Assembly (NCBI RefSeq): GCF_024502345.1
Contig: NZ_JALDNN010000001.1
DNA from: Escherichia coli
GTDB taxonomy: Bacteria > Pseudomonadota > Gammaproteobacteria > Enterobacterales > Enterobacteriaceae
Strand: one strand, 5' to 3'
DNA length: 64,000 bases
The notes under the pieces: model-generated
Database searches by the model: none
What the model saw: only the letters and a program-made list of their open reading frames with translations
What the model was told of the DNA's origin: nothing
Translations under genes and position numbers: made by a program
Part shown: in pieces, positions 1-50,887 of the stretch
Layout of the letters: every line of letters begins with the position of its first letter
Position numbering within the stretch: the first letter of the stretch is position 1

Positions 1-672
1 GACCGTTCCGTGGCAAAGCAAAAGTTCAAAATCACCAACTGGCCCACCTACAATAAAGCCCTCATCAACCGTGGCTCCATAACTTTCTGGCTGGATGATG
101 AAGCTATTCAGGCCTGGTATGAGTCAGCAACACCTTCTTCACGAGGCAGACCTCAGCGCTATTCTGACCTTGCCATCACGACTGTGCTGGTCATTAAACG
201 CGTATTCAGGCTGACCCTGCGCGCTGCGCAGGGCTTTATTGATTCCATTTTTTCTCTGATGAACGTTCCGCTACGCTGCCCGGATTACAGCTGTGTCAGC
301 AGGCGGGCAAAGTCGGTTAATGTCAGTTTCAAAACGCCCACCCGGGGTGAAATCGCACACCTGGTAATTGATTCCACCGGGCTGAAGGTCTTCGGTGAAG
401 GCGAGTGGAAAGTCAAAAAGCATGGCCAGGAACGCCGCCGTATCTGGCGTAAGCTGCATCTCGCCGTTGACAGTAAAACACATGAAATCATCTGCGCTGA
501 CCTGTCGCTGAACAACGTTACGGACTCAGAGGCCTTCCCCGGGTTAATCCGGCAAACCCACCGGAAAATCAGGTCAGCCGCCGCCGATGGCGCTTACGAT
601 ACCCGGCTATGTCACGATGAACTGCGGCGTAAGAAAATCAGCGCGCTTATCCCTCCCCGAAAAGGTGCGGGT
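1..672 (+). mobile_element. IS903-like (IS5 family) insertion sequence remnant; transposase N-terminal ~221 aa only, 3' part missing
   Basis: ORF 10..846 begins MAKQKFKITNWPTYNKALINRGS...RLCHDELRRKKISALIPPRKGAG, which I recognise as the IS903 transposase. The match ends near nt 672; downstream frame is read-through antisense to the GTPase gene. The element start lies at or beyond the window edge. Confidence 0.75.
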
Positions 673-1094
673 TGCATCACACCGTTCCAGAACTGCTCGT
701 CCACCGACAGCGCACGGTCATCAGCTTTGATGACCCACAGCACCAGGTCAAGCTCTGGCAGCATACGCCGGTACAGGGCGCGGTATTCATGGTCCCGTTG
801 TCCGTTCTCTCCCACGCCCGGTAAATCAACAATCACCAGACTGTGACGACCACTGCGCAGCCGGAAGCGCAGTATGTCGCGGGTGCAGGCGTTCACATCA
901 CTGACGGCGGAGACTTCCCCCCGAAAGAGTTCGTTACAGAGCGACGACTTACCGGCACCACTCTTGCCCATGATGCCAATCACCGGCTCGTAGTGGGTCA
1001 GATTCTGAATACGTTCAAGAATAAGCTGGCGAAGCGTATCGGGAAGCGACGCCAGCGGTTTTTCCAGGGCCTGAAGGCCATCAGTTTTATTCAT
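672..1094 (-). pseudogene. C-terminally truncated YfjP/YeeP-family GTPase
   Basis: ORF 612..1094 (-) has a P-loop GIMGKSGAGKSS and DLPGVGE motif typical of prophage YfjP/YkfA/YeeP GTPases. Only ~140 aa of an expected ~290 remain before the IS903 junction. Confidence 0.6.
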
Positions 1095-1726
1095 ACAGGG
1101 TTCTCAGCGTGAAAAACAAAAATCCCCGCGCTCCGGTCAGGGAGGCGGGGGATTCACGGAGATAATATCTATCTGAATTTATTTAGAATATAAGCAGGCT
1201 CATGTAACTGTAGCAGTGTCAACTTTACATCACAGCTCATGTTGGCTGGTGGTATTTTGCCAATAGTAGACATTTACGCCTAGGTTTAGATATCGAAATT
1301 AGTACACCAATATAGATACAGCAAAGAGGGAACTGATTTGTCTGCGCGAGACTAGAACCGTTGCCCCCTGTGGTTCGATGGATTGCAGGAAAATCATTTC
1401 CGGTGCTGAAGAGAGCCTCCGATACAACCTGAGAATATTTTAAGAACATCAAAATGAATGACGTAATTTACTCAAAGGCGATTGCCTAATATGTCATGAT
1501 ATTAGTAGCATTTAATTGCGTGAAAGTTTGTATATTCTTTTGAATTTATCTCAAAGCTAAAACCTCGTCAAAAATACACAAAAGGGTTTTGAGAAACAAG
1601 AGCCTGATGCTGAATCTGCTACAGAGCTGGGTTCTGTTCTGTTAAACTTGCGGTTAAAAATTTCCAAGAAAACCTAGGATATGACATGAGTTCACTGCAC
1701 ACCAGTAGTAGCAGCAGGGCGGTCAC

Positions 1727-4540
1727 ATGCCAATGGAGAGCTGTACGCAAATGAACGCCGTAGAAATTGAACAAGCCATCACGGATCTTGCAGAGCAACC
1801 CTTTGATCCTATAGAGTTTCCTTATGCTTTTCTTGAAGCCTTTGGTAACAAGGAAACGACTGTCAAACGCTTGCGCGCCGGTGCATCAAACAAATCCGAC
1901 TTGGGCGGTGTTCTCCAGAGCAATAATATTCACATTCTGACCTGCGAAGCAGGGACTGTGACTCAGATGTTGGCCGCGCTCAAGGCTAGCCCTGCGACAA
2001 CTAAAGCCAAGGCGAAGTTCATCCTGGCTACAGATGGCAAAGATTTCGAAGCTGAAGACCTCGTTAGCGGTCAGACTGTCGCTTGCGCCTTTAAAGACTT
2101 CCCAGATCACTTCGGCTTTTTCTTGCCATTAGCAGGCATTAGCACAGTTCGTCAGATTTGTGAGAACTCCTTTGACATTCGGGCCACTAGCCGGCTGAAT
2201 CGTCTGTATGTCGAGTTGTTGAAAGATAACCCTACCTGGGGGACGGCGGAGCGACGTCATGACATGAACAAATTCATGACTCGGCTGATCTTTTGTTTTT
2301 TCGCTGAGGATACTGACATTTTCGTGGGTAAGGGACGCTTTACTGAAACCGTTGCGCAGATGAGTACAAGAGATTCGTCGAATACGCATGAAGTTATCGC
2401 TACCTTGTTTCGTGCCATGAACACCAGTAACAAAGATAGAGCCGCCGCTGGCATCCCGCGCTGGGCCAATGAGTTTCCTTATGTCAACGGACGCTTGTTC
2501 TCTGGGAGTAATGATGTACCACTGTTCAGTAAGATTGCACGGTCTTATTTGCTCCATGTGGGTAGCCTTGACTGGACCAAGATTAATCCGGATATCTTTG
2601 GCTCGATGATTCAGGCAATTGCCGAAGACGAAGAACGCGGAGAGCTGGGGATGCATTACACCAGCGTACCCAACATCTTAAAAGTTTTGAATCCACTATT
2701 TCTGGACGACCTGCGCGCAAAGCTGGATGAGGCGGGTGACAATCCGCGTATGTTGCTTAACCTGCGTAAGCGCATTTCCCACATCCGTGTGTTCGACCCA
2801 GCGTGCGGTTCTGGTAACTTTTTGGTTATCGCGTACAAGGAAATGCGTGCCATTGAGGCCGAAATCAACAAGCGGCGTAATGAGCCAGATCGCGCCTCGG
2901 ATATCCCACTTACCAACTTTCGCGGGATTGAACTAAGAGATTTCCCGGCAGAGATCGCCCGCCTTGCGCTTGTTATCGCTGAGTACCAATGTGATGTACT
3001 GTACCGTGGGCTGCGGTTGGCCTTGGCTGAGCTTCTTCCGTTACGCAACGAAAATTGGATTACCTGTGGCAATGCACTACGGCTCGACTGGTTAAGAATT
3101 TGCCCGCCGACAGGAACAGGTGTGAAATTACATGGCGATGACTTGTTTGGATCTCCGCTTGATCAGGCAGAGATCGACTTTGAGAATGAAGGCGGAGAGA
3201 CATACATTTGCGGTAACCCACCATACCTTGGTTCAAAGTGGCAGACGGATGAACATAAAGCTGATCTTGGCACAATCTTTTCTGGTCGCGTGAAAAATTG
3301 GAAATCGCTCGATTATGTTGCTGGCTGGTTCCTGAAAGCCGCTGACTATGGTAGCCAGACAAGTTCCCAGGCTGCTTTTGTTGCCACTAATTCAATCAGC
3401 CAAGGGCAGCAAGTGTCGATTCTGTGGCCGGAAATATTCAAGGCAGGACAAGAGATTAGTTTCGCTTACACGAGCTTTAAGTGGTCGAACCTCGCTACTC
3501 ACAACGCCGGGGTCACAGTTGTTATCATCGGAATTTCTAACTGTGTAGGAAAGTCGCGACGCCTCTTTTCGGCTGGAGGAGACAATGGTGCGACGACGTG
3601 TCGTGAGGTGGAGCGCATCAACGCCTATTTGATCGCTGGCCCTAACATCATTGTGGAGGGGGACAGTTGTCCAGCCGACAGTCTTGCAACGATGCAGTTC
3701 GGTAACCACCCGTACTATGGTGCATCACTGATCTTTTCGAGATCTGAAGCACAGCAGATGATGTCTGTCGATCCGCGTACGGCGCGTTTTATTCGCCCAC
3801 TATATGGCTCCCAAGAGTTCATTTCCGCTGTGCCACGAGCCTGTCTATGGATTAACGACGATGAGGCTGACGAAGCGGGGACGATTCCTCTGATAGCTGA
3901 GCGTATGAGCGCCGTAGCAAGTGCTAGACGTGCAAAAAAACAAGACAAGGCAGCCCAGAAACTGGCTAAGACTCCATATCGCTTTCGCGACCAGCAGACA
4001 TCTACGAATCATATTCTTGTGGTTCCTCGAGTCAGTTCAGAGAACCGTCCTTGCTTGCCGGTTGGATTACTTGACTCTGACTCTATCGTTCAAGATCAAG
4101 CATTCGCCCTTTACGACGCTCCTCTCTGGAACCTCGCCATCATAGCGAGTCGCCTGCATCTAGTTTGGATCGCCACGGTTTGTGGAAAGTTAGAGACACG
4201 CTACCGCTATTCAAACACCCTCGGCTGGAATACTTTCCCGCTCCCAACACTCACTGAGAAAAATAAGGCAGACCTCACGCGCTGTGCAGAGGATATTCTT
4301 CTGACTAGGGAGCATCACTTCCCTGCAACCATTGCAGACCTTTATGACCCCGAGAAGATGCCAGACGACCTGCGTATTGTGCACGAGCGTAATGACGAAG
4401 TGCTTGAGCGTATTTACATTGGGCGCCGCTTTAAGAATGACACAGAGCGGCTTGAGAAGCTGTTTGACCTTTATACTAAGATGGCCGCTTCAACTGCATC
4501 GGGCAAAAGCAATAAACGTAAAGTGGGAACCAATGCATGA
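1727..4540 (+). CDS. MmeI-family (type IIG/IIL-like) N6-adenine DNA methyltransferase with target-recognition region; N-terminal nuclease motif apparently degenerate
   Basis: 937-aa ORF. SAM motif I FDPACGSGNFLV, catalytic motif IV GNPPY, and MmeI/PglX hallmarks FPYVNGRLF, HYTSVPNILKVLNPLFLDDL, FVATNSISQGQQVSILWP, RYRYSNTLGWNTFP, LYDPEKMP. Alternative start at 1751 (MNAVEIEQ). Confidence 0.85.
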   Translation: MPMESCTQMNAVEIEQAITDLAEQPFDPIEFPYAFLEAFGNKETTVKRLRAGASNKSDLGGVLQSNNIHILTCEAGTVTQMLAALKASPATTKAKAKFILATDGKDFEAEDLVSGQTVACAFKDFPDHFGFFLPLAGISTVRQICENSFDIRATSRLNRLYVELLKDNPTWGTAERRHDMNKFMTRLIFCFFAEDTDIFVGKGRFTETVAQMSTRDSSNTHEVIATLFRAMNTSNKDRAAAGIPRWANEFPYVNGRLFSGSNDVPLFSKIARSYLLHVGSLDWTKINPDIFGSMIQAIAEDEERGELGMHYTSVPNILKVLNPLFLDDLRAKLDEAGDNPRMLLNLRKRISHIRVFDPACGSGNFLVIAYKEMRAIEAEINKRRNEPDRASDIPLTNFRGIELRDFPAEIARLALVIAEYQCDVLYRGLRLALAELLPLRNENWITCGNALRLDWLRICPPTGTGVKLHGDDLFGSPLDQAEIDFENEGGETYICGNPPYLGSKWQTDEHKADLGTIFSGRVKNWKSLDYVAGWFLKAADYGSQTSSQAAFVATNSISQGQQVSILWPEIFKAGQEISFAYTSFKWSNLATHNAGVTVVIIGISNCVGKSRRLFSAGGDNGATTCREVERINAYLIAGPNIIVEGDSCPADSLATMQFGNHPYYGASLIFSRSEAQQMMSVDPRTARFIRPLYGSQEFISAVPRACLWINDDEADEAGTIPLIAERMSAVASARRAKKQDKAAQKLAKTPYRFRDQQTSTNHILVVPRVSSENRPCLPVGLLDSDSIVQDQAFALYDAPLWNLAIIASRLHLVWIATVCGKLETRYRYSNTLGWNTFPLPTLTEKNKADLTRCAEDILLTREHHFPATIADLYDPEKMPDDLRIVHERNDEVLERIYIGRRFKNDTERLEKLFDLYTKMAASTASGKSNKRKVGTNA

Positions 4541-6582
4541 GCAACAAGATTAGATCTGTACCGTCAGTTTCTGTTACCTACTCACGCAACGGAGCATCGA
4601 CCAAGGCTAATTCTCTTGGGATGCGTCCTATGCAAGAAAGGGCTTATGAGAAGCGCGGAGAACAATATCTTCTCATAAAGTCGCCGCCCGCCTCTGGCAA
4701 GAGTCGTGCGCTGATGTTCGTCGCACTCGATAAACTCGCAAACCAGGGGATCAAACAGGCAATCATTGTCGTGCCGGAAAAATCTATCGGCGCGAGCTTC
4801 AACGATGAACCGCTATCGCAGTTTGGATTCTGGGCTGATTGGCATGTTGAACCTAAGTGGAATCTGTGCAACGCCCCCGGTAACGACAACGGCGGCAAGG
4901 TAAAATCTTTCGGCTCTTTTCTTGAAAGTAGCGACAAGGTGCTTGTTTGTACACACGCAACCTTTCGCTTCGCGGTCGATGCCTACGGTGTAGAGGCGTT
5001 TGACGATCGCCTGATCGCCGTCGATGAATTTCACCATGTGTCCGCTAACCCGGATAACAAGCTTGGTCAGCATCTGGGACAGTTCATTGAGCGTGACAAG
5101 ACGCACATCGTGGCCATGACCGGCTCCTACTTCCGGGGAGATGCGGAAGCCGTTTTGGCTCCTCAGGATGAGTCTAGGTTCGATACCGTCACCTACACCT
5201 ACTACGAACAACTCAACGGTTACGAATACCTCAAACAGCTTGATATCGGATACTTCTTTTATAGTGGATCATACATTGATGACATCCTCAATGTCCTCGA
5301 TCCTGACAAGAAAACGATTATCCATATTCCCAACGTCAATTCGCGCGAGAGTACGAAGGATAAAATTAAGGAGGTGGAGCACATTCTGAGCGAGCTTGGC
5401 GATTGGCAAGGTGCGGATCCTACGACTGGTTTTCAGCTAGTCAAGCGCCCCGATGGCCATGTGTTGCGTATTGCTGACCTGGTGGACCCAGCCAGTCAAG
5501 GCAAGATTCAGGAAAGCCTCCGAGCTCCAGAAATGAAGACAGACCGTGACTATGTAGACATCATTATTGCACTTGGTATGGCGAAGGAAGGTTTCGACTG
5601 GATCTGGTGCGAACATGCGCTGACTGTTGGCTACCGTGCCAGCCTGACTGAGATCGTGCAGATTATCGGTCGCGCTACTCGCGACGCGCCGGGTAAAACC
5701 CGCGCGAGATTTACTAACTTGATCGCCGAGCCCGACGCTGTAGAGGGCGCAGTAACTGAGGCAGTCAACGATACCTTGAAAGCTATCGCGGCGAGCCTGT
5801 TGATGGAACAGGTACTGGCTCCGCGCTTCGAGTTCAAGCCCAAGAATCCTGAAATCGGTCCGACTCCAGGCTTTGATTATGGTGATGGAGGATATGACCC
5901 GGATAGCTGCAATTTTGGTGTTAATGAGCAGACAGGGACGTATCAAATCGAGATTAAGGGACTTGCCGAGCCTAGGAGCAAAGAGGCGGCACGTATCTGC
6001 CAGGAAGATTTAAACGAAGTGATCGCGGCCTTTGTGCAGGATAAGCCCGCCATCGAACGAGGCCTGTTCGATGAAGAGCTGATCCCTGAAGAGTTAACAC
6101 AGGTTCGTATGGGTAAGATCATCAAAGAAAAGTATCCTGAACTTGATGCTGAAGATCAGGAGGCTGTACGTCAGCATGCTATCGCCGCCCTTAACCTCAC
6201 GCAGCAGGCCAAGCGTCTTGCTACCGGTGAAAACGATGGGACGCTCAATACTGCTCTTATTGACGGAGTGCGTCGCTTTGCAATGGATGTGCGCGATTTA
6301 GACATAGACCTTATCGACCGCATCAATCCCTTTGGTGAAGCCTACGCTATCCTTGCTAAGACGATGAGTGAAGACAGTTTGAAGCAGGTCGCGGCGGCCA
6401 TCTCGGCCAAGCGTACTTCGATCACGCCTGAAGATGCCAAGGTGATCGCCAAGCGTGCCGCTGAATTCAAACGTGAACGTGGGCGCCTCCCATCGTTAAC
6501 TTCGCTGGATGCTTGGGAAAAACACCTTGCTGAAGGTGCAGCCGCGTTTATGCGTTTTAGGGCGGAGGGACGTTATGAGTAA
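4537..6582 (+). CDS. SF2 DExH-box helicase with ~280-aa C-terminal extension of unknown function
   Basis: 681-aa ORF. Walker A PPASGKS, motif II VDEFHH, motif III MTGSY, motif VI QIIGRATR. Start ATG overlaps the methyltransferase stop (ATGA at 4537-4540). Confidence 0.8.
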   Translation: MSNKIRSVPSVSVTYSRNGASTKANSLGMRPMQERAYEKRGEQYLLIKSPPASGKSRALMFVALDKLANQGIKQAIIVVPEKSIGASFNDEPLSQFGFWADWHVEPKWNLCNAPGNDNGGKVKSFGSFLESSDKVLVCTHATFRFAVDAYGVEAFDDRLIAVDEFHHVSANPDNKLGQHLGQFIERDKTHIVAMTGSYFRGDAEAVLAPQDESRFDTVTYTYYEQLNGYEYLKQLDIGYFFYSGSYIDDILNVLDPDKKTIIHIPNVNSRESTKDKIKEVEHILSELGDWQGADPTTGFQLVKRPDGHVLRIADLVDPASQGKIQESLRAPEMKTDRDYVDIIIALGMAKEGFDWIWCEHALTVGYRASLTEIVQIIGRATRDAPGKTRARFTNLIAEPDAVEGAVTEAVNDTLKAIAASLLMEQVLAPRFEFKPKNPEIGPTPGFDYGDGGYDPDSCNFGVNEQTGTYQIEIKGLAEPRSKEAARICQEDLNEVIAAFVQDKPAIERGLFDEELIPEELTQVRMGKIIKEKYPELDAEDQEAVRQHAIAALNLTQQAKRLATGENDGTLNTALIDGVRRFAMDVRDLDIDLIDRINPFGEAYAILAKTMSEDSLKQVAAAISAKRTSITPEDAKVIAKRAAEFKRERGRLPSLTSLDAWEKHLAEGAAAFMRFRAEGRYE

Positions 6583-7753
6583 TTCTGATTTAGACGATTT
6601 GGCGGCAGAACTTGCTGAATTTGCACCACCGGAGAAGAAAAAAGGACGTCCAGCCAGCGAGGAACGCATCATCGCAGGTTTTGAGGAAATCCAGCGCTTC
6701 GCTGACCAACATGGACGTGCGCCGCAACACGGCGAAGAGCGTGAGATCTTTGAGCGCCTCTATGCAGTGCGGCTCGACCGGCTACGCAGTCTCCCAGACT
6801 GCCGTGCCTTGCTAGAGCCGCTGGATCATCAAGGCTTATTGGCTGGAGGGGGTGATGTAGCGGAGTCAGCGGACGAAATTATCGATATCGATAATTTGGC
6901 TGCCGAACTGACGGATGTTTCCAGCGAGGATGATATCACAGTCTTGCGTCATGTTCGTGCTAGCGCCGAAAAGCGTGCTGTACAAGGGATCGCGGATCGC
7001 AAGCCGTGCGAGGATTTTGATACATTCAAACCGCTATTTGAACAGGTGCGCAGTGATCTAAGTTCAGGGTTAAGAGTGACCCGACCTTTTGGACAGTATG
7101 CAACGATTGAAGTGGGCCATTGGTTCATCCTGGATGGTCAAACGGCTTATGTGGCTGAGGAAGGTGAAGAGTTCGATTCTCCACAGGGGAAGAAAGATGC
7201 TCGGCTGCGTGTCATTTATTCGAATGGTACAGAAAGTAACCTGCTTCGGCTGTCATTAGTTCGTGCTTTGTATAAAGACGAAACAGCACGTCGAATTACC
7301 GATCCAGACATGGGGCCTTTATTCAGCGATGCTCTAGAAGAGAGCGATCTAGAAAGTGGCACCATTTATGTATTGCGTTCGCTATCAGATAACCCTTATG
7401 TGGCCGAACATCGTGATGTTATTCACAAGATTGGTGTGACTGGCGGCAAGGTCGAGACTCGTATTGCTAATGCTGAACACGATTCCACCTATCTGTTGGC
7501 GAAGGTAGAGGTGGTCGCTTCATACAAACTCGCAGGTATCAACCGCACCCGGATGGAAAACCTGTTTCACAGGTTGTTTGCACCCGCAAGGCTTAACATT
7601 ACCATTAACGACCGTTTCGGCCATCCAGTACAGCCCGAGGAATGGTTTCTCGTTCCGTTATTCGTTATCGATGAGGCTGTTGCACGTATTAAGGATGGTA
7701 GCATCATTGGGTATGTTTATGACCCCATGTCTGCGAAACTGGTGAAGGCATAG
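6575..7753 (+). CDS. T5orf172/MUG113 (GIY-YIG superfamily) domain protein, candidate nuclease, with acidic N-terminal domain of unknown function
   Basis: C-terminal GTIYVLRS...HKIGVTGGKVETRIANAEH...PEEWFLVPL fits the T5orf172 GIY-YIG-like pattern. GGAGGGA Shine-Dalgarno 6 nt upstream of ATG 6575; start overlaps the helicase stop (taa 6580-6582). The ORF track's upstream ATG at 6509 lacks an RBS. Confidence 0.65.
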   Translation: MSNSDLDDLAAELAEFAPPEKKKGRPASEERIIAGFEEIQRFADQHGRAPQHGEEREIFERLYAVRLDRLRSLPDCRALLEPLDHQGLLAGGGDVAESADEIIDIDNLAAELTDVSSEDDITVLRHVRASAEKRAVQGIADRKPCEDFDTFKPLFEQVRSDLSSGLRVTRPFGQYATIEVGHWFILDGQTAYVAEEGEEFDSPQGKKDARLRVIYSNGTESNLLRLSLVRALYKDETARRITDPDMGPLFSDALEESDLESGTIYVLRSLSDNPYVAEHRDVIHKIGVTGGKVETRIANAEHDSTYLLAKVEVVASYKLAGINRTRMENLFHRLFAPARLNITINDRFGHPVQPEEWFLVPLFVIDEAVARIKDGSIIGYVYDPMSAKLVKA

Positions 7754-7779
7754 TGAAGTGACACACTGAATTTGGCCAC

Positions 7780-7812
7780 CTGTTCTGAGGTGAGTATATC
7801 ACCTCAGAACAG
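7780..7812 (+). terminator. Perfect 14-bp-stem hairpin just downstream of the three-gene cassette; no U-tract
   Basis: ctgttctgaggtga / gtata / tcacctcagaacag read directly. Lack of a T-run makes intrinsic-terminator function uncertain; could be an RNA stability or protein-binding element. Confidence 0.3.
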
Positions 7813-7868
7813 CACAGGAATAAAAGATACTGATTTGAATGTACCTATACTTTGCGATGTGAGGATCA

Positions 7869-8660
7869 ATGAATAGTAACCTGACCAAGATATGTTACCG
7901 TGGTGAGACTGGTGAAAGTGATCTAAGAACGTTGATACTTGGTGAGATTCTATATATCTCACTACGAGATGTTTTAATCACGCTGAATAAAGAAAATAGA
8001 GAAATCAACGCTGATTACACAGTAAAATCGATGGCTGGAATAATCAGGGCGCAATTACAGGCTCTTGACCCTGATGAGTATATTACTACAGATGCTGAAA
8101 ATGGTGTTTTTGAAGGTCAGAAAGAGATCTTCGTCACCCAGCCAGGTTTGTATCGAGTCATGTCAAGTGACCGAAGCGCTGCCGGTAAGCGCTTTCAAAA
8201 ATGGTTATTTCATGAAGTCATACCATCATTGACTAAGCATGGTGTATACCCGCCTCCGCCAGAAGCGAAAGGTTCAGCCCTTGCACAAATGGCTGAGATA
8301 CTTGCTCAAAATTCGCGAGCACTTGCTGACGCAATCCATAAACACGAAAAACTGGCCGAAGATGTCTCACAGGTTAAAGGTAAAGTTGCCAACGTTGAAA
8401 GCCGTCTGGAACTGTTAGAATCAGGTCCTTCCACTGTAACTGAAGATATGCATACTCTTGATAGCCGTCTCGCTTATTTGGACATGAGCATGGAAGAAAA
8501 GCATACCACCGAGACATTAGCCTGGTGCGAGAATATTTCTGTTCAAAATAACAGGAAGGTGATTCGCAAGGACTGTAGGGAGAATTCGCTCTTTACAACG
8601 CAGACTATCGACGAAGCAATCGCTATCATGACTGAAAGTGGAAAAATCACACCAAATTGA
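7869..8660 (+). CDS. Bro-N (KilA-N/antirepressor-like) domain protein with coiled-coil C-terminus
   Basis: 263-aa ORF. N-terminal ...DLRTLILGEILYISLRDVLITL...GLYRVMSSDRSAAGKRFQKWLFHEVIPSLTKHGVY resembles the Bro-N fold pattern. GAGGAT RBS upstream. Confidence 0.55.
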   Translation: MNSNLTKICYRGETGESDLRTLILGEILYISLRDVLITLNKENREINADYTVKSMAGIIRAQLQALDPDEYITTDAENGVFEGQKEIFVTQPGLYRVMSSDRSAAGKRFQKWLFHEVIPSLTKHGVYPPPPEAKGSALAQMAEILAQNSRALADAIHKHEKLAEDVSQVKGKVANVESRLELLESGPSTVTEDMHTLDSRLAYLDMSMEEKHTTETLAWCENISVQNNRKVIRKDCRENSLFTTQTIDEAIAIMTESGKITPN

Positions 8661-8716
8661 AGATCCTGGGGTTCAGATTATCTGCTGGCTATCTTATTGA
8701 GCTCTGACGTAAAATA

Positions 8717-8739
8717 GGCCTTCCCACAAAGAGAAGGCC
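8717..8739 (-). terminator. Intrinsic terminator hairpin for the minus-strand YfjJ-like gene, between convergent genes
   Basis: ggccttc / 9-nt loop / gaaggcc, followed on the minus strand by tatttt. Confidence 0.45.
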
Positions 8740-8748
8740 ATTGCCGAC

Positions 8749-9375
8749 TTACAGATCGATTTGGCTACAGCCGAAGTTACGGTCTCCTTCACCAAACACT
8801 TTGCTTTCGACTTTGGTGAGGTAATCCAGTCGGGTTAACAGCGCTTGGTAGTTATGCTGGAAGTCAGCATTATTGGTATCCAGCACGTACTTACAGTTGT
8901 CAGGAAAATGGACCAGACCAGGGTGATCATCCAGTTTCAGTCCCAGGGCGCTGTACCACGCTCCCGTAATCATCCCTCTCAGGTTATCGTGCTGATCGTA
9001 ATCCCCGAGGTGGTAGTAAGCGTCTTTGTTGAACAACAGGCAAATGTGGTAGTGGCATTTACCTGACTCAGAATACTCTTTCGCCCATATAATAAATAAA
9101 GGGCAACGGTAGATGCGTTTACCTTCACGCTCCTTACGGGTACGGTCAGCCTCCAGTTTAGCTCTGAGGGAATCACGCATTCGGGATATCACCCCTGGTT
9201 CAAGATTAGGGAAACAGCAGATATTGTCTCCGTTATCGACTATCTTCGGATAATGCAGATCGACACGTACCGCCGTTAACCTGGGGTAACGGTTAGTCAA
9301 ATAACATAATAATTTTTTAATCTTGATCTGATATTCGAGGATATGTACTCCATGAGTACCTTGATATGTTTTCAT
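8749..9375 (-). CDS. YfjJ/YagK-family (inovirus Gp2-like) prophage protein
   Basis: 208-aa ORF resembling the YagK/YfjJ family of CP4-type islands; in the island-backbone position expected from K-12 CP4-57. Confidence 0.65.
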   Translation of the reverse strand: MKTYQGTHGVHILEYQIKIKKLLCYLTNRYPRLTAVRVDLHYPKIVDNGDNICCFPNLEPGVISRMRDSLRAKLEADRTRKEREGKRIYRCPLFIIWAKEYSESGKCHYHICLLFNKDAYYHLGDYDQHDNLRGMITGAWYSALGLKLDDHPGLVHFPDNCKYVLDTNNADFQHNYQALLTRLDYLTKVESKVFGEGDRNFGCSQIDL

Positions 9376-9397
9376 AATATATATCTGTATTTGGTCC

Positions 9398-9418
9398 TAC
9401 GGTCTATAGCAGACCGTA
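9398..9418. promoter_or_regulatory. Perfect palindrome TACGGTCT-ATAGC-AGACCGTA upstream of the YfjJ-like gene; candidate operator
   Basis: 8-bp arms with 5-bp spacer, ~25 bp upstream of the start codon at 9375. Confidence 0.35.
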
Positions 9419-9509
9419 CAGGGATGCCATACAGGCAGGGCTATTCCTGGTCACTGTTGTCGGTATATACTGGTATCAGATCTTAGTACGGATATACTGA
9501 TCTGATTAC

Positions 9510-9542
9510 TACTCTTACTGGTGAATACAGGTAGTAAGAGTA
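9510..9542. promoter_or_regulatory. 10-bp perfect inverted repeat TACTCTTACT-N13-AGTAAGAGTA; candidate protein-binding or recombination site
   Basis: Read directly; lies between the recombinase-like gene stop (9647) and the YfjJ-like gene. Confidence 0.3.
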
Positions 9543-9646
9543 CACAATGCCATTATATAATACCTATCCAACATCTAAATTTGAGACGAAGGTAGCCCCA
9601 GCCTGTGATGGCTGTTAAAAAGTTACTCTGCAATTAGCTTCTGGAA

Positions 9647-10216
9647 TTAACCGATGATTCCGTTATTCCAGTGCCGCTTCACAGTCGATAAACTGATACT
9701 CAATTTCTTTGCAATCTCAGCCTGAGTAAATCCACCTTTCTTAAGTATTGTGATATCACGTCGGTATTTGCTTCCCTCCTTTCGTCCTAATTTCTTCTTA
9801 ACATGTCGATATCGGCTTTTAGTTGATTTCAGATTGTGAATGTCAATCGTATCCTGACGAGCAATCAAAAAAGACAAGCAACTTTCAGCAGAAGGCTCTA
9901 TCCTTGAAGCTGGATGGTAGCTGTAGATAAAAATTTCTTTTTGAAGGCAAAAAAATAAAATATTCTGTAAGTCCTCCACAGTTCTGCCAAGACAGCTTAG
10001 ATCTGGAATGACAAGCGTGTCCTGCCGGTTCATTTCATGATGAATCAATTGTCTGAGTAAACGTTGCTCTGAAACAACCTCTTTAATATCTACCTGCTCG
10101 ATCACAACATGTTCAGGTAGAATATTAAATTTTTGGCATATCTCAGCAAGTGAGTGATGATCTGTAATGCTTTCTTGCTGTTCGCTACTGCATATGGTGT
10201 AAAAAAATGAACGCAT
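9647..10216 (-). CDS. Serine-recombinase (resolvase/invertase)-like protein with C-terminal HTH, conserved residues partly substituted
   Basis: N-terminus MRSFFYTICSSEQQ matches the resolvase catalytic-serine region and DTLVIPDLSCLGRT the second conserved block; C-terminal GGFTQAEIAKKLSISLSTVKRHW is a Hin-like HTH. The ORF track extends to 10345; start chosen at the internal Met. Confidence 0.55.
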   Translation of the reverse strand: MRSFFYTICSSEQQESITDHHSLAEICQKFNILPEHVVIEQVDIKEVVSEQRLLRQLIHHEMNRQDTLVIPDLSCLGRTVEDLQNILFFCLQKEIFIYSYHPASRIEPSAESCLSFLIARQDTIDIHNLKSTKSRYRHVKKKLGRKEGSKYRRDITILKKGGFTQAEIAKKLSISLSTVKRHWNNGIIG

Positions 10217-10371
10217 CTGATGCACTCCGGTGTCATAAATTATTCTTTGATACCTGAACAATGTCATTTTGTATAAAAAATAACCAAAAATAGAGCGTGA
10301 TTGCCAGCGATACTTTGAGTGGTAAAGTAGTATTTTACCTCTCATAATTGTTTGTCCTTCTTTGTTACCTC

Positions 10372-11085
10372 TTAGGTTCTGCTCTCCTGTGAGTATGGGT
10401 TTATAATGATGTCATCCGGTGCATTAACACGGTTGGAAACATTTGTTTTACGGATCACTGGCAGCATAACCACCATCTCATTGACATGGTAAATATCAAT
10501 CCAACAAACAACCGGATAAGGCATAACAATCCCCTTTCTTCTAAGAACTTCATTTATCCCGAATATAATTAATTGGGATGTTGACAAGAGTAGAGTCTGC
10601 CCGACATCAAAGTAATAATCCTCAAAGGTTGTTCTATGAATAAGAATAATGTTTGAATATCCCAAGACACTTTGATGCTTTACATTAAAATGTCGTTGAT
10701 TGTAAATGTAAATGGCTTTTTCCATATCGTAATTTTCCCTCAGCGAGGATAGCCTTTCACGTATAACTGTTTTTTCATCTTTCCCCATGAATTCATCATT
10801 AGCGTTCAGTTTAAAGTAATCTGTAATTGGGATTTTTAATGGACTCATGATGTTCGTTTTCCAGATTAACGAACAGTATTCTTCCAGAGTCACTTCTTTT
10901 TCACCTCGATTTCGAATAATTCTTTCATTTATAGTGAATCTTAGTAGATCGTTTTTTAGCTCCTTTATTAGCCATTGATAGCGAAGACATTGCTCGAATA
11001 TATGTACCGTCAACGCCACAGAGTCTGATATGACTGAGGAAAGAGATTTATTATTCATCCTGGCATAATGCTCAAGAGTTTCCAT
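10372..11085 (-). CDS. Hypothetical protein, AT-rich orphan island gene
   Basis: 237-aa ORF with no recognisable motif; low GC relative to surroundings. Confidence 0.45.
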   Translation of the reverse strand: METLEHYARMNNKSLSSVISDSVALTVHIFEQCLRYQWLIKELKNDLLRFTINERIIRNRGEKEVTLEEYCSLIWKTNIMSPLKIPITDYFKLNANDEFMGKDEKTVIRERLSSLRENYDMEKAIYIYNQRHFNVKHQSVLGYSNIILIHRTTFEDYYFDVGQTLLLSTSQLIIFGINEVLRRKGIVMPYPVVCWIDIYHVNEMVVMLPVIRKTNVSNRVNAPDDIIINPYSQESRT

Positions 11086-11245
11086 CTCAGATTCATTTTT
11101 GTGCGTAAAAGTGTATTTTTTATTGGAAATGTTTTTTACTCCTTATAATTAACATTGCTATTAATTAATCCTGTTTGTAAAGGAGAAGTTTATTAATAAG
11201 TAAAAGTCCGCCTGCATCAAGACACGATGAAAATGTCTTCCTTTC

Positions 11246-11458
11246 TTACTCTATTGCCCGGGTTCGTTGTAAAATCCATTCGTCTATTTCAGCCTCTATC
11301 CAGCCGACAGATTGCAGCCCCAGACGACGTTGTTTCGGGAACGTTGGGTCATAGCGTGGCGATTTCGGATTGATCCAGTCATAGATTGTTGAACGTGACA
11401 AGCCCGTTTTGTCAATTACTGTAGAAAGACGAAGTATTTTAACATTAGATTTGTTCAT
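11246..11458 (-). CDS. alpA: AlpA-family prophage transcriptional regulator (excision activator)
   Basis: 70-aa ORF MNKSNVKILRLSTVIDKTGLSRSTIYDWINPKSPRYDPTFPKQRRLGLQSVGWIEAEIDEWI matches AlpA. Confidence 0.85.
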   Translation of the reverse strand: MNKSNVKILRLSTVIDKTGLSRSTIYDWINPKSPRYDPTFPKQRRLGLQSVGWIEAEIDEWILQRTRAIE

Positions 11459-11879
11459 AGCTGATTACCTCAAATCGAAGTGCTCTGGATGATGTGAGAT
11501 TAGCTTTAAGGCAGCCAATCTAAAATGTATGTGCCAAAAAAACTTTTTTTTACGAACGGGAAATAAATATCCTATTGAAATTTAATGATTTTATTTTTTT
11601 TCTGTCGGGTCCATCAGAACGGTGTGAATTCAGTTACAGCCTTCCGGTCCGGTAATGGGCCAGTTATATGTTGAGTGGCTGCGCTTCGATGACTTCTGTT
11701 TCAGTGGGCTGGTCTATCTCCGACGTGCTGTGGCAGGTAGCGGTTCAGCAGTAGCCATTATTCGTTCTGCTCCGTCAGTACCGCACCCAGCAGCCGCAAG
11801 ATGCTCTCTTCATTGGGAAGATACCTACCACTGTCAACGCCAAGATTGTTGGCCGTTTCGTCCGCATCCCCTATTGGTC

Positions 11880-12570
11880 ATTAATGTTGTCCGCTTTCCG
11901 CCGTTTCATCTCTTTGTTCAGGCGCTCCAGCGTGTTTGTGGAGTGGGTTTTTCACTTGGTGTGCTTTCGGGAGGCCGAAGGACGCCAGCACGTCTGCCTC
12001 TGCTTCGTCCATCACCCCGGTGACCGCCGGGTTGCTTTTCTCCCATTGACCGGCAACCTTGCACAGGTGGCATGGGCGCTTTTCTCGTCGGTCTGCACGA
12101 ACACCTGTTGCAGCGCCGCACGGACCACCGACTGGTTTGCACGGCTGACGCGGCTCAGCACGTTGCGCATGAAGTGGACCCGGCAGCGCTGCCAGCTGGC
12201 GGAGAACATCTGCCTATCGCCGCCTTCAGGCTCAGCAGGAAGGTCAGCCAGGATGCCGTTTATCCATGCTTCCTGGATAACCGCGTTGAGCGCCTTCTCA
12301 GACAATCTGTGGGCCTCCAGGAAGGGCGGGAAGTACGTCCCTTTAAGCAGCTTCGGAATACGCAGGTCCACAGCGTGCCGAGCTGGCGGGGACTGACGGT
12401 CACGATAGCCGTTGTGGTAGGTTTCGCGCTCATCGCTGCGCTAGTGGGCTCCGCGTTGATGTGCTGAGTGACATCTGCTTCCATAATGCAGTTGAGCATA
12501 AATTCGGTGAGTTCACGCAGAAAATCCTCGCCGCCGAGTAGCATCAGGGTGTTGCTGAATGTCATGCTGT
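11880..12570 (-). pseudogene. IS256-family (Mutator-type) transposase remnant, frameshifted with internal deletion
   Basis: Minus-strand fragments: 12260..12565 (MTFSNTLMLLGGEDFLRELTEFMLNCIMEADVTQ, typical N-terminus) and 12012..12371 (...QRCRVHFMRNVLSRV motif) in different frames; the DDE core between them is absent. Confidence 0.55.
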
Positions 12571-12784
12571 TGTCATTCCGAATTTACACCACGCCCTAAG
12601 ACTCTACCTTATTTTCTTTGCAAAGCAGGCTGCTTGTGCAAGTTGTACATGTAGTTAACAGGCAGTAAGTATGGCAAACCATTATTTCATGTCTTCACAT
12701 CTGGTTCTTCATTCAGTTAAGTAGTAAAAATGAAAGGGATGTCAGAGCAAGAACAGATGACGTTGTGTAACTGACCAATGAAGG

Positions 12785-13558
12785 ATGATATGGAATATGC
12801 TTGATATTTTTTGCTCGGAATTTGAAGAAAAAAGAAACAAATTAAAGACCTACCTTGAAAGCTCGGGATTTCTTTATAGGCATTCTATCATCAAAAAAAT
12901 GTCTCTTTTGGATGGTATGGATGAAAGCCAGAATTTTGAGTTGTTGCAGGCGAAACAATATAATCGTGATGATATACAATGCTGGGAGTATATTAGCTCT
13001 AAGTGGACCGTCGTTCCTATTATGATGGGTTCGCAAAGCCTTAAACACTTTTTTACATGGAATTTTAAGGCCGCTGGGATATTTCAGCGATATGGAAAGG
13101 ATATGTGGGATATCAACAAGATAATTGCAGTTAAATCTTTATTGTTTGCTAGTTCAGTCTTAGGTAGTTGCCTTGGGGTTGCAGGCTATGGCCCGTTGCT
13201 GCCTTCGGAGCTTGCATTAGACAAAAAGAAGCTAACTAAGAAAAAACAGTCAGCAAGAATGGGAGGGATATCTAAGGCTGAATTATATCTCCCGATAAAA
13301 GAAGAGACGATAAGATTGCTCCACCAAAATGTTCCTGTGGATGGTAGATGGAAAAATAAAACGGTTGCAGCAAAGGCAATAGAGGCAGATTTAGTCATCT
13401 TTGTACAAAATTTGAAATCTCAAAACCAAAATCTGGATCTTAATGAAGAAGATATTATTACAGTCGTCAAACGTTGGGAACGCAATGATGAAAGAGTAAA
13501 GGCTGCATTTGAGGGAACGGTGAAGCAAAAAATCTCTGGCAAGAAGGGCTCGGGTTAG
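12785..13558 (+). CDS. Hypothetical AT-rich, lysine-rich protein with one predicted hydrophobic segment
   Basis: 257-aa ORF; hydrophobic stretch IIAVKSLLFASSVLGSCLGVAGYGPLL. No recognisable domain. Confidence 0.45.
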   Translation: MIWNMLDIFCSEFEEKRNKLKTYLESSGFLYRHSIIKKMSLLDGMDESQNFELLQAKQYNRDDIQCWEYISSKWTVVPIMMGSQSLKHFFTWNFKAAGIFQRYGKDMWDINKIIAVKSLLFASSVLGSCLGVAGYGPLLPSELALDKKKLTKKKQSARMGGISKAELYLPIKEETIRLLHQNVPVDGRWKNKTVAAKAIEADLVIFVQNLKSQNQNLDLNEEDIITVVKRWERNDERVKAAFEGTVKQKISGKKGSG

Positions 13559-13589
13559 AACTTCTCATTATTTTTTCCAAAAATAAGAA

Positions 13590-13609
13590 CCGCGCCTTTG
13601 AAGGCGCGG
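13590..13609 (-). terminator. Hairpin terminator between convergent integrase and hypothetical gene
   Basis: ccgcgcc-tttgaa-ggcgcgg, followed on the minus strand by a T-rich tract. Confidence 0.4.
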
Positions 13610-13620
13610 ATTAAGTAGAA

Positions 13621-14862
13621 TCAAACAACAAGTTTTAATGCACCGGCACTAGATTCTACCATGCTTCCTTTATCTGCTCTTTTAACAAAATCAGCCCACC
13701 ATTGCATCATCGGCCTACGTTGCTCAAGATAATCACTGCGGTTATAAGCGCGACGTACCTCATTTTTGTCTACATGAGCAAGTGCGGCTTCAATGACATC
13801 AGGAGGAAATCCTTGCTCATTGAGGGCTGTACTGGCGATAGAACGCAAACCATGTGAAACCAGCACTCCCCCTAAACCGGCACGCTTGAGTGCAGCATTC
13901 ACGGTTTGACTGTTCATCGGCTGAGTGGGCTTAATGCGGCTTGGAAAAATAAAATCTCGGCCACCACTGAGCGGCTTCATCATTTCCAGAATAGCCAGAG
14001 CCCCATCAGATAATGGAACGGTATGGTCCCGGTTCATTTTCATTCGGGCTGCTGGAATTTTCCATTCGTTAGCATCAAAATCGATCTCATTCCACCGAGC
14101 TTCTGCGGCTTCTGCGGGGCGGGTGATGGTGAGAAGTTGCCACATGAACAGACACCGCGTAGACAGGCTGATACTGGCCGTACGCATAGTTTGCATCAAC
14201 TGAGGCAACTGATCCGGACGAATACTGGGCATGTTCTTTTTCTGAGGTTTCTCGAAGGCTTTGCCAATATTAACACTGGGAACTGCATCAATCAGGCCCG
14301 TGTTTTGGGCATAAATCATGACTTCATTGATCCGTTGGCAAAGACGGCGGACAGTTTCCAGTGCTCCTCGGGCCTGAACGGGTTGAACGGCTTGAACCAG
14401 TGTATGGGCTTTAATATCTGTAACGCTTACGTTGCCAATTGCGGGAAATATATCTCTTTCAAGCGAACGCCAGATATCATCAGCATAGTCCTCGGTTACA
14501 CTGGCTTTCTTCACATTCCACCAACGCTCGGCAACTAACAAGAAAGTGTTGGTTTTGGCCTCCTGAGAATTTCTTATCTGTTCTTTTTGGTATTCCTGAG
14601 GATCGATTCCTTTTGCCAGTAATACTTTGGATTCAGCTCTGAGCTTACGAGCATCGGAAAGCGAGACAGCAGGATAGGAACCGAAGCTCTGTTTAGTTCG
14701 CTGTTTTGTCAGAGGTCGGTAATAACGGAATTGCCAGAGCTTACTGCCACTGGATTTGATTAGCAGCGTCAGTCCGTCACCATCATACAACTGATAATCG
14801 GCATCTTTAGATTTGGCTGCTTTGATTTCCGTATCCGTTAACGGCTTGGTTTTTCTTGCCAC
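13621..14862 (-). CDS. intA: P4-type tyrosine integrase of a CP4-57-like island (GTG start)
   Basis: 413-aa ORF beginning (M)ARKTKPLTDTEIKAAKSKDADYQLYDGDGLTLLIKSSGSKLWQFRYY, immediately downstream of ssrA on the same strand. Confidence 0.9.
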   Translation of the reverse strand: MARKTKPLTDTEIKAAKSKDADYQLYDGDGLTLLIKSSGSKLWQFRYYRPLTKQRTKQSFGSYPAVSLSDARKLRAESKVLLAKGIDPQEYQKEQIRNSQEAKTNTFLLVAERWWNVKKASVTEDYADDIWRSLERDIFPAIGNVSVTDIKAHTLVQAVQPVQARGALETVRRLCQRINEVMIYAQNTGLIDAVPSVNIGKAFEKPQKKNMPSIRPDQLPQLMQTMRTASISLSTRCLFMWQLLTITRPAEAAEARWNEIDFDANEWKIPAARMKMNRDHTVPLSDGALAILEMMKPLSGGRDFIFPSRIKPTQPMNSQTVNAALKRAGLGGVLVSHGLRSIASTALNEQGFPPDVIEAALAHVDKNEVRRAYNRSDYLEQRRPMMQWWADFVKRADKGSMVESSAGALKLVV

Positions 14863-15044
14863 GGTGGAGTCTCCATGCTTTTAGGCCCAACAAAGACCAT
14901 AGATCTTTTCGTTGGGCCTATCAATGGGCCTAAAACAATTAGCTTAGGTAGGATCAAATCAGATAGCGCTGGACATAAAAAAGCCCGTAAGTCGTTGTGA
15001 CTACGGGTTTTTTGGTTTTTCTTGGATTGCTTTGGAATAAAATT

Positions 15045-15407
15045 TGGTGGAGCTGGCGGGAGTTGAACCCGCGTCCGAAATTCCTACATCCTCGGTACTA
15101 CATGCTTAGTCAGTCTTTACATTCGCTTGCCAGCTGCGGACGGACACGCCACTAACAAACTAGCCTGATTAAGTTTTAACGCTTCAACCCCAGGCAGGGC
15201 TTCCACGCGATCTCTTTTGGGTTTGACCTCTCTTGATCCCCGTCCTAAGAGCGGAGGCTAGGGAGAGAGGGCTCTAAGCAGGTTATTAAGCTGCTAAAGC
15301 GTAGTTTTCGTCGTTTGCGACTATTTTTTGCGGCTTTTTACGAGGCCAACCGCCCCTCGGCATGCACCTTGGGTTTCGCAAATCCCGTCGAATCCAGAAT
15401 CAGCCCC
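15045..15407 (-). ncRNA. ssrA: tmRNA (SsrA); its 3' end is the island integration site
   Basis: Reverse complement reads GGGGCTGATTCTGGATTCGACGGG...GGGTTCAACTCCCGCCAGCTCCACCA, with the tag-coding region and tRNA-like ends. Confidence 0.95.
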
Positions 15408-41626: not shown

Positions 41627-44529
<2,903 letters not shown>

Positions 44530-44621
44530 ACAACGCCGAAGGTGTTTTGGCGGATGAGAGAAGATTTTCAGCCTGATACAGATTAAATCAGAACGCAGAA
44601 GCGGTCTGATAAAACAGAATT

Positions 44622-44741
44622 TGCCTGGCGGCCGTAGCGCGGTGGTCCCACCTGACCCCATGCCGAACTCAGAAGTGAAACGCCGTAGCGCCGATGGTAG
44701 TGTGGGGTCTCCCCATGCGAGAGTAGGGAACTGCCAGGCAT
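44622..44741 (+). rRNA. rrfG: 5S ribosomal RNA
   Basis: TGCCTGGCGGCCGTAGCGCGGTGG...CTGCCAGGCAT; 120 nt. Confidence 0.97.
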
Positions 44742-44754
44742 CAAATAAAGCGAA

Positions 44755-44781
44755 AGGCCATCCTGACAGATGGCCTTTTTG
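44755..44781 (+). terminator. rrn operon intrinsic terminator
   Basis: aggccatc...gatggcct hairpin followed by TTTTT. Confidence 0.75.
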
Positions 44782-46681: not shown

Positions 46682-46726
46682 AACGTGGCCTCCAAAAAAC
46701 AAACCCCGTACAGGACGGGGTTGTGA

Positions 46727-48082: not shown

Positions 48083-48195
48083 CACAGTGCATTTCTTCTC
48101 TGTTCATTGAAGGGTCCTCTGTGCAATGCAGACGACATAAGCGGGCAATAATAACACCAGTCCCGATTAAGTGGTCAACATTTCCAGTACCTTAC

Positions 48196-50856: not shown

Positions 50857-50887
50857 ACCGGTCTCCCGCAGAAGTGACCGAATGATT

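What the first reader, a model, noticed from the sequence alone, without database searches (positions are those of the whole stretch)
1..1094. IS903 remnant abutting a truncated YfjP-like GTPase gene
IS903 transposase similarity stops abruptly near nt 672 (after ...PPRKGAG), and on the opposite strand the GTPase reading frame also loses its family sequence there. Both the IS and the GTPase gene are incomplete at the same junction, which indicates an IS-associated deletion that removed island DNA beyond the cassette.
Basis: partly seen in the sequence, partly recalled or inferred. Interest (0 to 1): 0.3.

Follow-up and report, generated by a model that had tools for sequence, protein, structure and literature searches.

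The report
Dead IS903B fragment fused to truncated GTPase gene
At the left edge of this E. coli window, a broken piece of the insertion sequence IS903B is joined directly to the first half of a yfjP-like island GTPase gene, an ordinary rearrangement scar that leaves two dead gene remnants.

Summary
Window 1-673 is 100% identical to IS903B positions 68-740. Window 670-1400 is 100% identical to an E. coli ssrA-island region that carries an intact 291-aa yfjP-like GTPase gene in other strains. The two parent sequences overlap by 4 bp (GGTT, 670-673).

The IS has lost positions 741-1057, including its right inverted repeat and the third catalytic residue of the transposase. The GTPase gene keeps codons 1-142 and has lost 451 nt, including the G4 motif.

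The junction is real. It occurs in two independent metagenome contigs, while near-identical islands (99.96%) elsewhere carry the intact gene plus an 8.9-kb distal block.

A transposase-made adjacent deletion would leave the IS end at the junction, and here the break is inside the IS. The best reading is a single illegitimate, microhomology-mediated join.

How much island DNA was lost, or whether it was only displaced, cannot be told, because the window starts inside the IS. An ISEcp1-type transposition-unit end was tested as a rival and weakened but not excluded. This is an ordinary, low-interest finding.

The parts
1..673 (+). IS903B fragment, IS positions 68-740 of 1057. The left limit is the window edge. 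The right limit is a true internal truncation, with positions 741-1057 including IRR absent.
   Evidence: 673/673 identity to the full IS903B in L002. No other IS903B sequence occurs in the 64-kb window.
10..672 (+). Truncated transposase coding part (aa 1-221 of the 307-aa IS903 transposase). D121 and D193 are present and the E259 region is lost. The frame runs on as a chimeric 278-aa ORF to 846.
   Evidence: ORF list. Pfam DDE_Tnp_1 covers profile 4-112 of 200 in the remnant, against 4-199 in the full protein. NCBIfam transpos_IS5_2 covers 1-217 of 289. The residue numbers of the DDE triad come from my own knowledge of IS903; their positions were counted on the translation.
670..673 (.). Junction: 4-bp microhomology GGTT, present in both parent sequences.
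   Evidence: Three-way alignment; overlapping BLAST ends at 1-673 and 670-1400.
670..1094 (-). 5' 425 nt (codons 1-142) of a yfjP-like island GTPase gene. G1 (GKSGAGKS) and G3 (DLPG) are kept. G4 (NQAD, aa 152-155) and the C-terminal 149 aa are lost.
   Evidence: 100% identity to KCJ3K291, where the gene is 876 nt. Pfam MMR_HSR1 covers 2-95 of 113. The intact homologue is 52% identical to K-12 YfjP over its full length.
612..1094 (-). Chimeric 160-aa ORF: 142 GTPase residues plus 18 residues read from the antisense strand of IS903B.
   Evidence: ORF list. The identical protein is called on two independent ENA metagenome contigs, L004 and L005.
1095..1726 (.). Intact intergenic region between the GTPase gene start and the divergent MmeI-family gene. 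It is unchanged relative to the intact islands.
   Evidence: 100% identity to KCJ3K291 through 1400 and 99.96% identity to L015 and L018 over 670-14540. Strain 2013C-4282 has an IS66 insertion here.
1727..8660 (+). Context: the island cargo 'cassette' (MmeI-family type IIG RM enzyme, DEAD/DEAH helicase, GIY-YIG/T5orf172 nuclease, BRO-N protein), intact.
   Evidence: PADLOC REase_MTase_IIG, E = 3.9e-284. Pfam families on the called genes and RefSeq annotations.
13621..15407 (-). Context: island integrase intA (13621-14862) and the ssrA tmRNA gene (15045-15407) that serves as the integration site. These show the scar lies in a CP4-57-type island.
   Evidence: ARAGORN and Rfam tmRNA, 295.8 bits. 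Synteny with K-12, 2013C-4282 and KCJ3K291.

Best explanation
The locus is a one-off illegitimate-recombination scar in a CP4-57-type island integrated at ssrA of an E. coli chromosome. A canonical IS903B copy lay somewhere to the left, with its transposase gene on the window's + strand. A break-and-join or replication-slippage event then fused IS903B position about 740 to codon about 142 of the island's yfjP-like GTPase gene, using 4 bp of shared sequence (GGTT). The event removed the right 317 bp of the IS (its inverted repeat and the end of the transposase gene), the 3' 451 nt of the GTPase gene, and whatever lay between them. The transposase did not make this junction. The result is two inert remnants: an IS piece that can no longer transpose, and a GTPase pseudogene that can at most yield a 160-aa P-loop stub. 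Shown here: the identities, the breakpoint, the microhomology, the missing parts, that the intact state is ancestral, and that the junction is real. Inferred: the recombination mechanism, and that the event was a deletion rather than an inversion or the insertion of a larger segment.
For: Both parents match at 100% identity and switch cleanly, with GGTT shared. By my own calculation, an overlap of 4 bp or more is expected by chance at only 1.6% of random joins: P(L=n) = (n+1)(1/4)^n(3/4)^2. The IS end is not at the junction; IRR and positions 741-1057 are absent from the whole window. Intact progenitor islands exist. L015 (Logan ERR1618410) and L018 (ENA ERZ27268009) are 99.96% identical to window 670-14540 and carry the 291-aa gene plus the distal block. 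KCJ3K291 and 2013C-4282 show the same, and so do all 8 representative places holding the identical MmeI-like protein. The junction occurs independently in ENA contigs L004 and L005, which stop exactly 141 nt (their k-mer size) into the IS, as expected at a repeat. The endpoint is not recurrent. The pattern 'IS903B up to 740 followed by a non-IS base' has 0 hits in 100,044 species-representative genomes and in the JGI metagenomes, and no complete RefSeq E. coli genome has the junction.
Against: The window starts at IS903B position 68, so the left side of the event is unseen. A deletion cannot be told apart from an inversion, or from the right-hand boundary of a larger inserted segment. Four base pairs is a short microhomology, and the mechanism is inferred from the scar alone. 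The absence of recurrent endpoints comes from exact-match scans of collections that may hold few IS903B copies; no positive control was run.
Confidence: 0.7

Rival explanations
1. The junction is the right-hand end of a one-ended transposition unit, for example ISEcp1 mobilising downstream DNA (blaCTX-M-9-group gene plus part of IS903B) and stopping at a surrogate right end inside IS903B. The unit inserted into the GTPase gene. In that case nothing was deleted, and the other half of the gene lies beyond the unit, left of the window.
For: In ISEcp1-blaCTX-M-14-IS903B arrays the IS903B transposase gene points the same way as in the window, so the geometry fits. Copies of IS903B truncated internally downstream of blaCTX-M-14 exist, at IS position 483 in L008 and 350 in L007. 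Chromosomal ISEcp1-blaCTX-M-14 units are common in E. coli: 260 records cover at least 80% of the unit.
Against: The IS903B copy linked to blaCTX-M-14/-24 is a conserved variant; the 60 best records are 100% identical to L009. It differs from the window copy at 8 of 673 positions, whereas the window copy equals the free canonical IS903B. The best match of the junction to the ISEcp1 IRR is 6 of 14, a score reached by 11% of all positions in IS903B. The would-be 5-bp target (GTTGC, GCATC and similar) is not AT-rich, which is the usual ISEcp1 preference (own knowledge). A 4-bp overlap is not expected for a transposition end. The endpoint is not recurrent in the two collections scanned.
Confidence: 0.1
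2. This is a transposase-catalysed IS903B adjacent deletion, the first reader's 'IS-associated deletion'. The IS attacked neighbouring DNA and deleted everything between its end and the GTPase gene.
For: An IS lies next to a truncated gene in an island that is longer in related strains. IS903 is known to make adjacent deletions (own knowledge).
Against: Such deletions start exactly at the terminal inverted repeat and leave the IS complete. Here the junction is at internal position 740, with IRR and 317 bp missing. The sequence at the break (AACCCGCACC..., read inward from the break) bears no resemblance to the IS903 terminal repeat GGCTTTGTTGAATAAATC.
Confidence: 0.03
3. The event was a rearrangement other than a simple deletion. 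One option is an inversion with one endpoint in IS903B and one in the GTPase gene. Another is illegitimate integration of foreign DNA (for example a plasmid segment ending in IS903B) into the GTPase gene. In either case the missing halves survive elsewhere in the genome.
For: The scar itself (microhomology, two internal breakpoints) is equally compatible with this. IS903B is mostly plasmid-borne in Enterobacterales: at least 5000 plasmid records match.
Against: Nothing in the 64-kb window shows the reciprocal products. Deletions are the commonest outcome of microhomology joins (own knowledge).
Confidence: 0.14
4. The junction is an assembly chimera that joins an IS contig to an island contig.
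For: IS copies are classic sites of misassembly, and the window begins inside the IS.
Against: The identical junction, including the 160-aa chimeric ORF, is present in two independently assembled ENA metagenome contigs from different accessions. One of these contigs was seen in two samples.
Confidence: 0.02

Closest known systems
IS903B (IS5 family, IS903 group; 1057 bp, 18-bp terminal inverted repeats, 307-aa DDE transposase)
   Same: 673 of 673 bases are identical to IS903B positions 68-740. The N-terminal 221 aa of the transposase are identical, including the DDE_Tnp_1_5 domain and the first two catalytic aspartates.
   Different: It is not a functional IS. The right inverted repeat and the last 86 codons (including the third catalytic residue) are missing, and the left end is outside the window.
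YfjP / YeeP / YkfA GTPases of the E. coli K-12 cryptic islands CP4-57, CP4-44 and CP4-6
   Same: It occupies the same position in a CP4-57-type island at ssrA, between the variable cargo genes and the conserved WYL, DUF932, antirestriction, RadC and CbtA/CbeA block. The intact homologue is 52% identical to K-12 YfjP over 291 aa and has an MMR_HSR1 P-loop GTPase domain.
   Different: Only codons 1-142 of 291 survive. The G4 motif and the C-terminal half are gone. This is a divergent paralogue or allele (52% identity), not yfjP itself.
Microhomology-mediated illegitimate recombination scars in bacteria (short-homology deletion, alternative end-joining)
   Same: Two unrelated sequences are joined at a few shared bases (4 bp here). 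No transposon end, target-site duplication or recombinase site lies at the join.
   Different: The mechanism is inferred from the scar only. The other side of the event is not visible.
ISEcp1-blaCTX-M-14-IS903B transposition units with variable right ends
   Same: The orientation of IS903B matches, and internally truncated IS903B copies exist downstream of blaCTX-M-14.
   Different: The window's IS903B is the canonical sequence, not the 8-SNP variant carried by those units. There is no convincing IRR-like end. ISEcp1 and bla are not visible.

Membership tests
IS903B (functional insertion sequence) | Nucleotide identity to IS903B | tested here: met
   673/673 identity over IS positions 68-740.
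IS903B (functional insertion sequence) | Right terminal inverted repeat (GATTTATTCAACAAAGCC) present at the element's end | tested here: not met
   The sequence leaves IS903B at position 740. Positions 741-1057 are absent from the whole window.
IS903B (functional insertion sequence) | Left terminal inverted repeat and 9-bp target-site duplication | not testable with these tools
   The window starts at IS position 68. Look-ups for contigs extending to the left found none.
IS903B (functional insertion sequence) | Complete DDE transposase (D121, D193, E259; 307 aa) | tested here: not met
   The frame is native only to aa 221. Pfam DDE_Tnp_1 covers 4-112 of 200, against 4-199 in the full copy.
YfjP/YeeP/YkfA-type island GTPase | P-loop GTPase domain with G1 and G3 motifs | tested here: met
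   MMR_HSR1 E = 6.4e-16. GKSGAGKS and DLPG are present.
YfjP/YeeP/YkfA-type island GTPase | Full-length homology to K-12 YfjP and the same island position | tested here: met
   The intact allele (KCJ3K291) is 52% identical to YfjP over 291 aa, E = 3e-109. The gene order is the same in K-12 CP4-57.
YfjP/YeeP/YkfA-type island GTPase | Complete ORF of about 290 aa including the G4 (NxxD) motif | tested here: not met
   Only aa 1-142 are retained. NQAD at aa 152-155 and the C-terminal 149 aa are lost.
Transposase-mediated IS adjacent deletion | An intact IS with its terminal repeat exactly at the deletion junction | tested here: not met
   The junction is at internal IS position 740.
ISEcp1 transposition unit | Right end resembling the ISEcp1 IRR (ACGTGGAATTTAGG) | tested here: inconclusive
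   The best score is 6 of 14 among the allowed ends. 11% of IS903B positions score 6 or more.
ISEcp1 transposition unit | IS903B copy is the variant carried downstream of blaCTX-M-9-group genes | tested here: not met
   There are 8 differences in 673 nt from the conserved bla-linked copy, and 0 differences from free IS903B.
ISEcp1 transposition unit | ISEcp1 at the left end and a 5-bp target duplication | not testable with these tools
   These would lie left of window position 1.
Microhomology-mediated illegitimate join | A few bases shared by both parents at the breakpoint, with no mobile-element end | tested here: met
   GGTT is shared, and the flanks are unrelated on both sides.

The most novel reading that the evidence does not exclude
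The IS903B stub may be the visible right edge of a larger acquired segment that inserted into the yfjP-like gene of the ssrA island. Candidates are a one-ended transposition unit or an illegitimately integrated plasmid fragment, possibly carrying resistance genes. The island would then be split rather than shortened, and the locus would mark a chromosomal capture of mobile DNA in a lineage also seen in metagenomes.
Probability: 0.12. Interest if true: 0.3.

Novelty: already known. Interest (0 to 1): 0.1.

Why it matters
It matters little beyond annotation. Window 1-673 should be annotated as an IS903B remnant, not a mobile IS, and 670-1094 as a GTPase pseudogene. The junction is a lineage marker, absent from 5,426 complete E. 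coli genomes but present in two metagenome assemblies. It shows that the conserved distal block of a CP4-57-type island can be cut away while the integrase-proximal defence cargo (MmeI-type enzyme, helicase, nuclease) stays intact. The mechanism matters for interpretation: the scar is not evidence of IS903B transposase activity.

Tried and rejected
1. I tried to see left of the window. Exact-product look-ups of the chimeric transposase ORF, with both the GTG and the TTG start, found nothing. Look-up of the 160-aa chimeric GTPase ORF found only two short metagenome contigs, which stop 141 nt into the IS. A 42-mer across the junction has no match in the JGI metagenomes.

2. I looked for the source genome or a close relative. 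No complete RefSeq E. coli genome has the junction. The three records that 'cover' 94% of window 1-1400 (AW1.7 and similar) are coincidental joins of a different IS5-family element (91.7% identity) on the other side of a GTPase gene. The best identity found was about 99% over window 7400-32000 and 99.4% over the core genes at 44000-64000.

3. The ISEcp1 transposition-unit hypothesis was tested by orientation, SNP variant and IRR similarity. It was weakened but not excluded. L008 looked like a positive control (7 of 14 IRR match at its IS903B-internal end), but its flanking 5-mers (CATTA and GATTA) are not identical, so it is inconclusive.

4. I tested whether the endpoint recurs. A pattern requiring a non-IS base after position 740 gave 0 hits in the GTDB representative genomes and 0 in the JGI metagenomes.

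5. Literature searches for chromosomal ISEcp1/IS903B units, for YfjP/YeeP function and for the IS903 catalytic residues gave nothing directly usable.

6. Promoter, terminator and Rfam scans of the region showed nothing beyond chance apart from the tmRNA gene.

Full report
**What is at 1-1094**

The first 673 bases of the window match a complete IS903B without a single mismatch. The comparator is L002 1434-2490: 1057 bp, bounded by GGCTTTGTTGAATAAATC and its inverted copy. The match covers IS positions 68-740. More than 900 E. coli records and thousands of plasmids carry the same sequence. The window therefore starts inside the IS, and the left inverted repeat is simply out of view.

From window base 674 onward the sequence has nothing to do with IS903B; 14 of the next 17 bases differ. 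Window 670-1400 is instead 100% identical to the chromosome of E. coli KCJ3K291. There the minus strand carries an intact 876-nt gene annotated 'GTPase family protein' (291 aa).

A three-way alignment shows a clean switch of parent, with four bases shared by both (GGTT, window 670-673).

**What each side has lost**

- **IS903B.** It lacks positions 741-1057, that is the right inverted repeat and the last 86 codons of the 307-aa transposase. The remnant keeps D121 and D193 but not E259. The triad numbering is from my own knowledge of IS903; the positions were counted on the translation. Pfam agrees: DDE_Tnp_1 covers profile positions 4-112 of 200 in the remnant, against 4-199 in a full copy. 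The frame then reads through into antisense GTPase DNA, giving a chimeric 278-aa ORF (10-846).
- **GTPase gene.** It keeps its start (window 1094) and codons 1-142 (...FWNGVMQP), then reads 18 codons of antisense IS903B and stops at 612. This is a 160-aa ORF. G1 (GKSGAGKS) and G3 (DLPG) survive. G4 (NQAD, aa 152-155) and the C-terminal 149 residues are gone.
- Both remnants are therefore dead.

**Where it sits**

The window is E. coli chromosome. The core genes sampled at 44000-64000 are up to 99.4% identical to complete genomes.

The tmRNA gene ssrA is at 15045-15407 (-) and the integrase intA at 13621-14862 (-). Everything to the left of them is a CP4-57-type island.

In K-12 the same slot holds, in this order: intA, alpA, yfjI, yfjJ, cargo (abpAB, rnlAB), yfjP (GTPase), yfjQ, yfjR (WYL), and on through antirestriction, RadC-like and YfjZ/YpjF to ypjA. 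The intact homologue of the window's gene is 52% identical to K-12 YfjP over its full length. 'YfjP-like' is thus a fair name by both homology and position.

The cargo here is an MmeI-family type IIG enzyme, a DEAD/DEAH helicase, a GIY-YIG/T5orf172 nuclease and a BRO-N protein (1727-8660). It is untouched.

**Which state is ancestral, and is the junction real?**

Strains KCJ3K291 and 2013C-4282 carry the same island with a full GTPase gene. Behind it lie WYL, Ivy-like, DUF905, DUF932, antirestriction, RadC, DUF987, CbeA/CbtA, DUF5983, DUF957 and DUF4942 genes, and then ypjA.

The exact MmeI-like protein of the window is listed in 328 blocks of the public assembly collection. In all 8 representative places shown, the neighbouring GTPase gene is 291 aa.

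Two of these, L015 (Logan ERR1618410) and L018 (ENA ERZ27268009), are 99.96% identical to window 670-14540. They are effectively the unbroken progenitor.

The broken form is not an assembly artefact. The identical 160-aa chimeric ORF and junction occur on two independently assembled ENA metagenome contigs, L004 and L005. Both end exactly 141 nt into the IS, which is their assembler's k-mer size. That is the behaviour expected where a unique junction runs into a repeat.

No complete RefSeq E. coli genome (5,426 genomes) has the junction.

**How the junction was made**

A transposase-made adjacent deletion begins exactly at the terminal inverted repeat and leaves the IS whole. Here the break is 317 bp inside the element, and the sequence at the break does not resemble the IS903 terminal repeat. 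The usual meaning of 'IS-associated deletion' is therefore not met.

The scar has the features of an illegitimate join. It has two internal breakpoints, no mobile-element end, no target duplication, and 4 bp of shared sequence. By my own calculation, an overlap of 4 bp or more arises at only 1.6% of random joins. This favours a microhomology-guided event (slippage or end-joining) over a transposition end.

I give this explanation a confidence of 0.7.

**The main rival**

ISEcp1 mobilises downstream DNA and can stop at surrogate right ends. In the common ISEcp1-blaCTX-M-14-IS903B arrays the IS903B points the same way as in the window, and copies truncated internally exist (L008, L007). If the window's junction were such an end, nothing would have been deleted and the gene's other half would lie beyond the unit. 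Four tests bear on this.

- The bla-linked IS903B is a conserved variant. The 60 best of 260 E. coli records are 100% identical to L009. It differs from the window copy at 8 of 673 positions, while the window copy equals the free canonical IS903B.
- The best similarity of the junction to the ISEcp1 IRR is 6 of 14, which 11% of all IS903B positions reach.
- The endpoint is not recurrent. A pattern demanding a non-IS base after position 740 has no match in 100,044 species-representative genomes or in the JGI metagenomes.
- The would-be 5-bp target is not AT-rich.

The rival is weakened to about 0.1. It cannot be excluded without the sequence to the left of the window.

For the same reason, a deletion cannot be told apart from an inversion or from the illegitimate integration of foreign DNA (together about 0.14).

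**What cannot be said**

I cannot say how much island DNA is missing. If the whole distal block went, the loss is at least 8.9 kb (L015). If IS903B had first inserted into or next to the GTPase gene, the loss could be a few hundred bases. All attempts to obtain the left flank failed.

**Verdict**

The locus is an ordinary pair of remnants, an immobile IS903B stub and a yfjP-like pseudogene, joined by a one-off microhomology scar. It is useful for annotation and as a lineage marker, and otherwise of low interest.

Noticed in passing
window 1727-8660: The island's cargo slot, where K-12 has abpAB and rnlAB, holds four genes. They are an MmeI-family type IIG restriction-modification enzyme (937 aa; PADLOC REase_MTase_IIG, E = 3.9e-284), then overlapping genes for a 681-aa DEAD/DEAH helicase and a GIY-YIG/T5orf172 nuclease (392 aa as called on L004), then a BRO-N protein. 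The helicase and the nuclease have no PADLOC hit. The trio is conserved together in every locus seen, and the MmeI-like protein is listed in 328 collection blocks. It may be a multi-gene defence module rather than a solitary type IIG enzyme.
   Followed up: partly
L001 5550-6425 (intact homologue of window 670-1094): The full-length yfjP-like GTPase has a weak partial PADLOC match to LeoBC (E = 7.4e-11, aa 7-200) and a Pfam Dynamin_N match. This hints that these island GTPases are dynamin-like. Their function is still unknown.
   Followed up: no
window 1290-1438, compared with L006 22643-24594 and L012: Strain 2013C-4282 and the L012-type contigs carry a degraded IS66 element inserted in the intergenic region between the GTPase gene and the MmeI-like gene. 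The same island has therefore been hit by different IS elements in different lineages.
   Followed up: partly
window 11835-12256, compared with L006 34984-35752: Near intA the window and 2013C-4282 diverge: one stretch is 86% identical, and that strain has a frameshifted IS256-family transposase there. L015 and L018 match the window throughout this part.
   Followed up: no
whole window (7400-32000 and 44000-64000 searched): Over the two stretches searched, the best identity to any of 5,426 complete RefSeq E. coli genomes is about 99% (7400-32000) and 99.4% (44000-64000). The island itself has 99.96%-identical copies in unrelated assemblies. The source lineage is thus poorly represented, while the island is widely shared.
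   Followed up: partly
L009 4880-5936 and L008 4880-5362: The IS903B copy downstream of blaCTX-M-14/-24 is a fixed variant. It differs from canonical IS903B at 8 positions within IS positions 68-740, the first of them G389A, which L008 also carries. This could serve as a marker to tell bla-linked IS903B fragments from free ones.
   Followed up: partly
L004 (ERZ27268145) and L018 (ERZ27268009): The truncated and the intact forms of the island occur in ENA metagenome assemblies whose accession numbers are close together, which may mean they come from the same study. This was not checked. If so, both alleles may co-circulate in one cohort.
   Followed up: no
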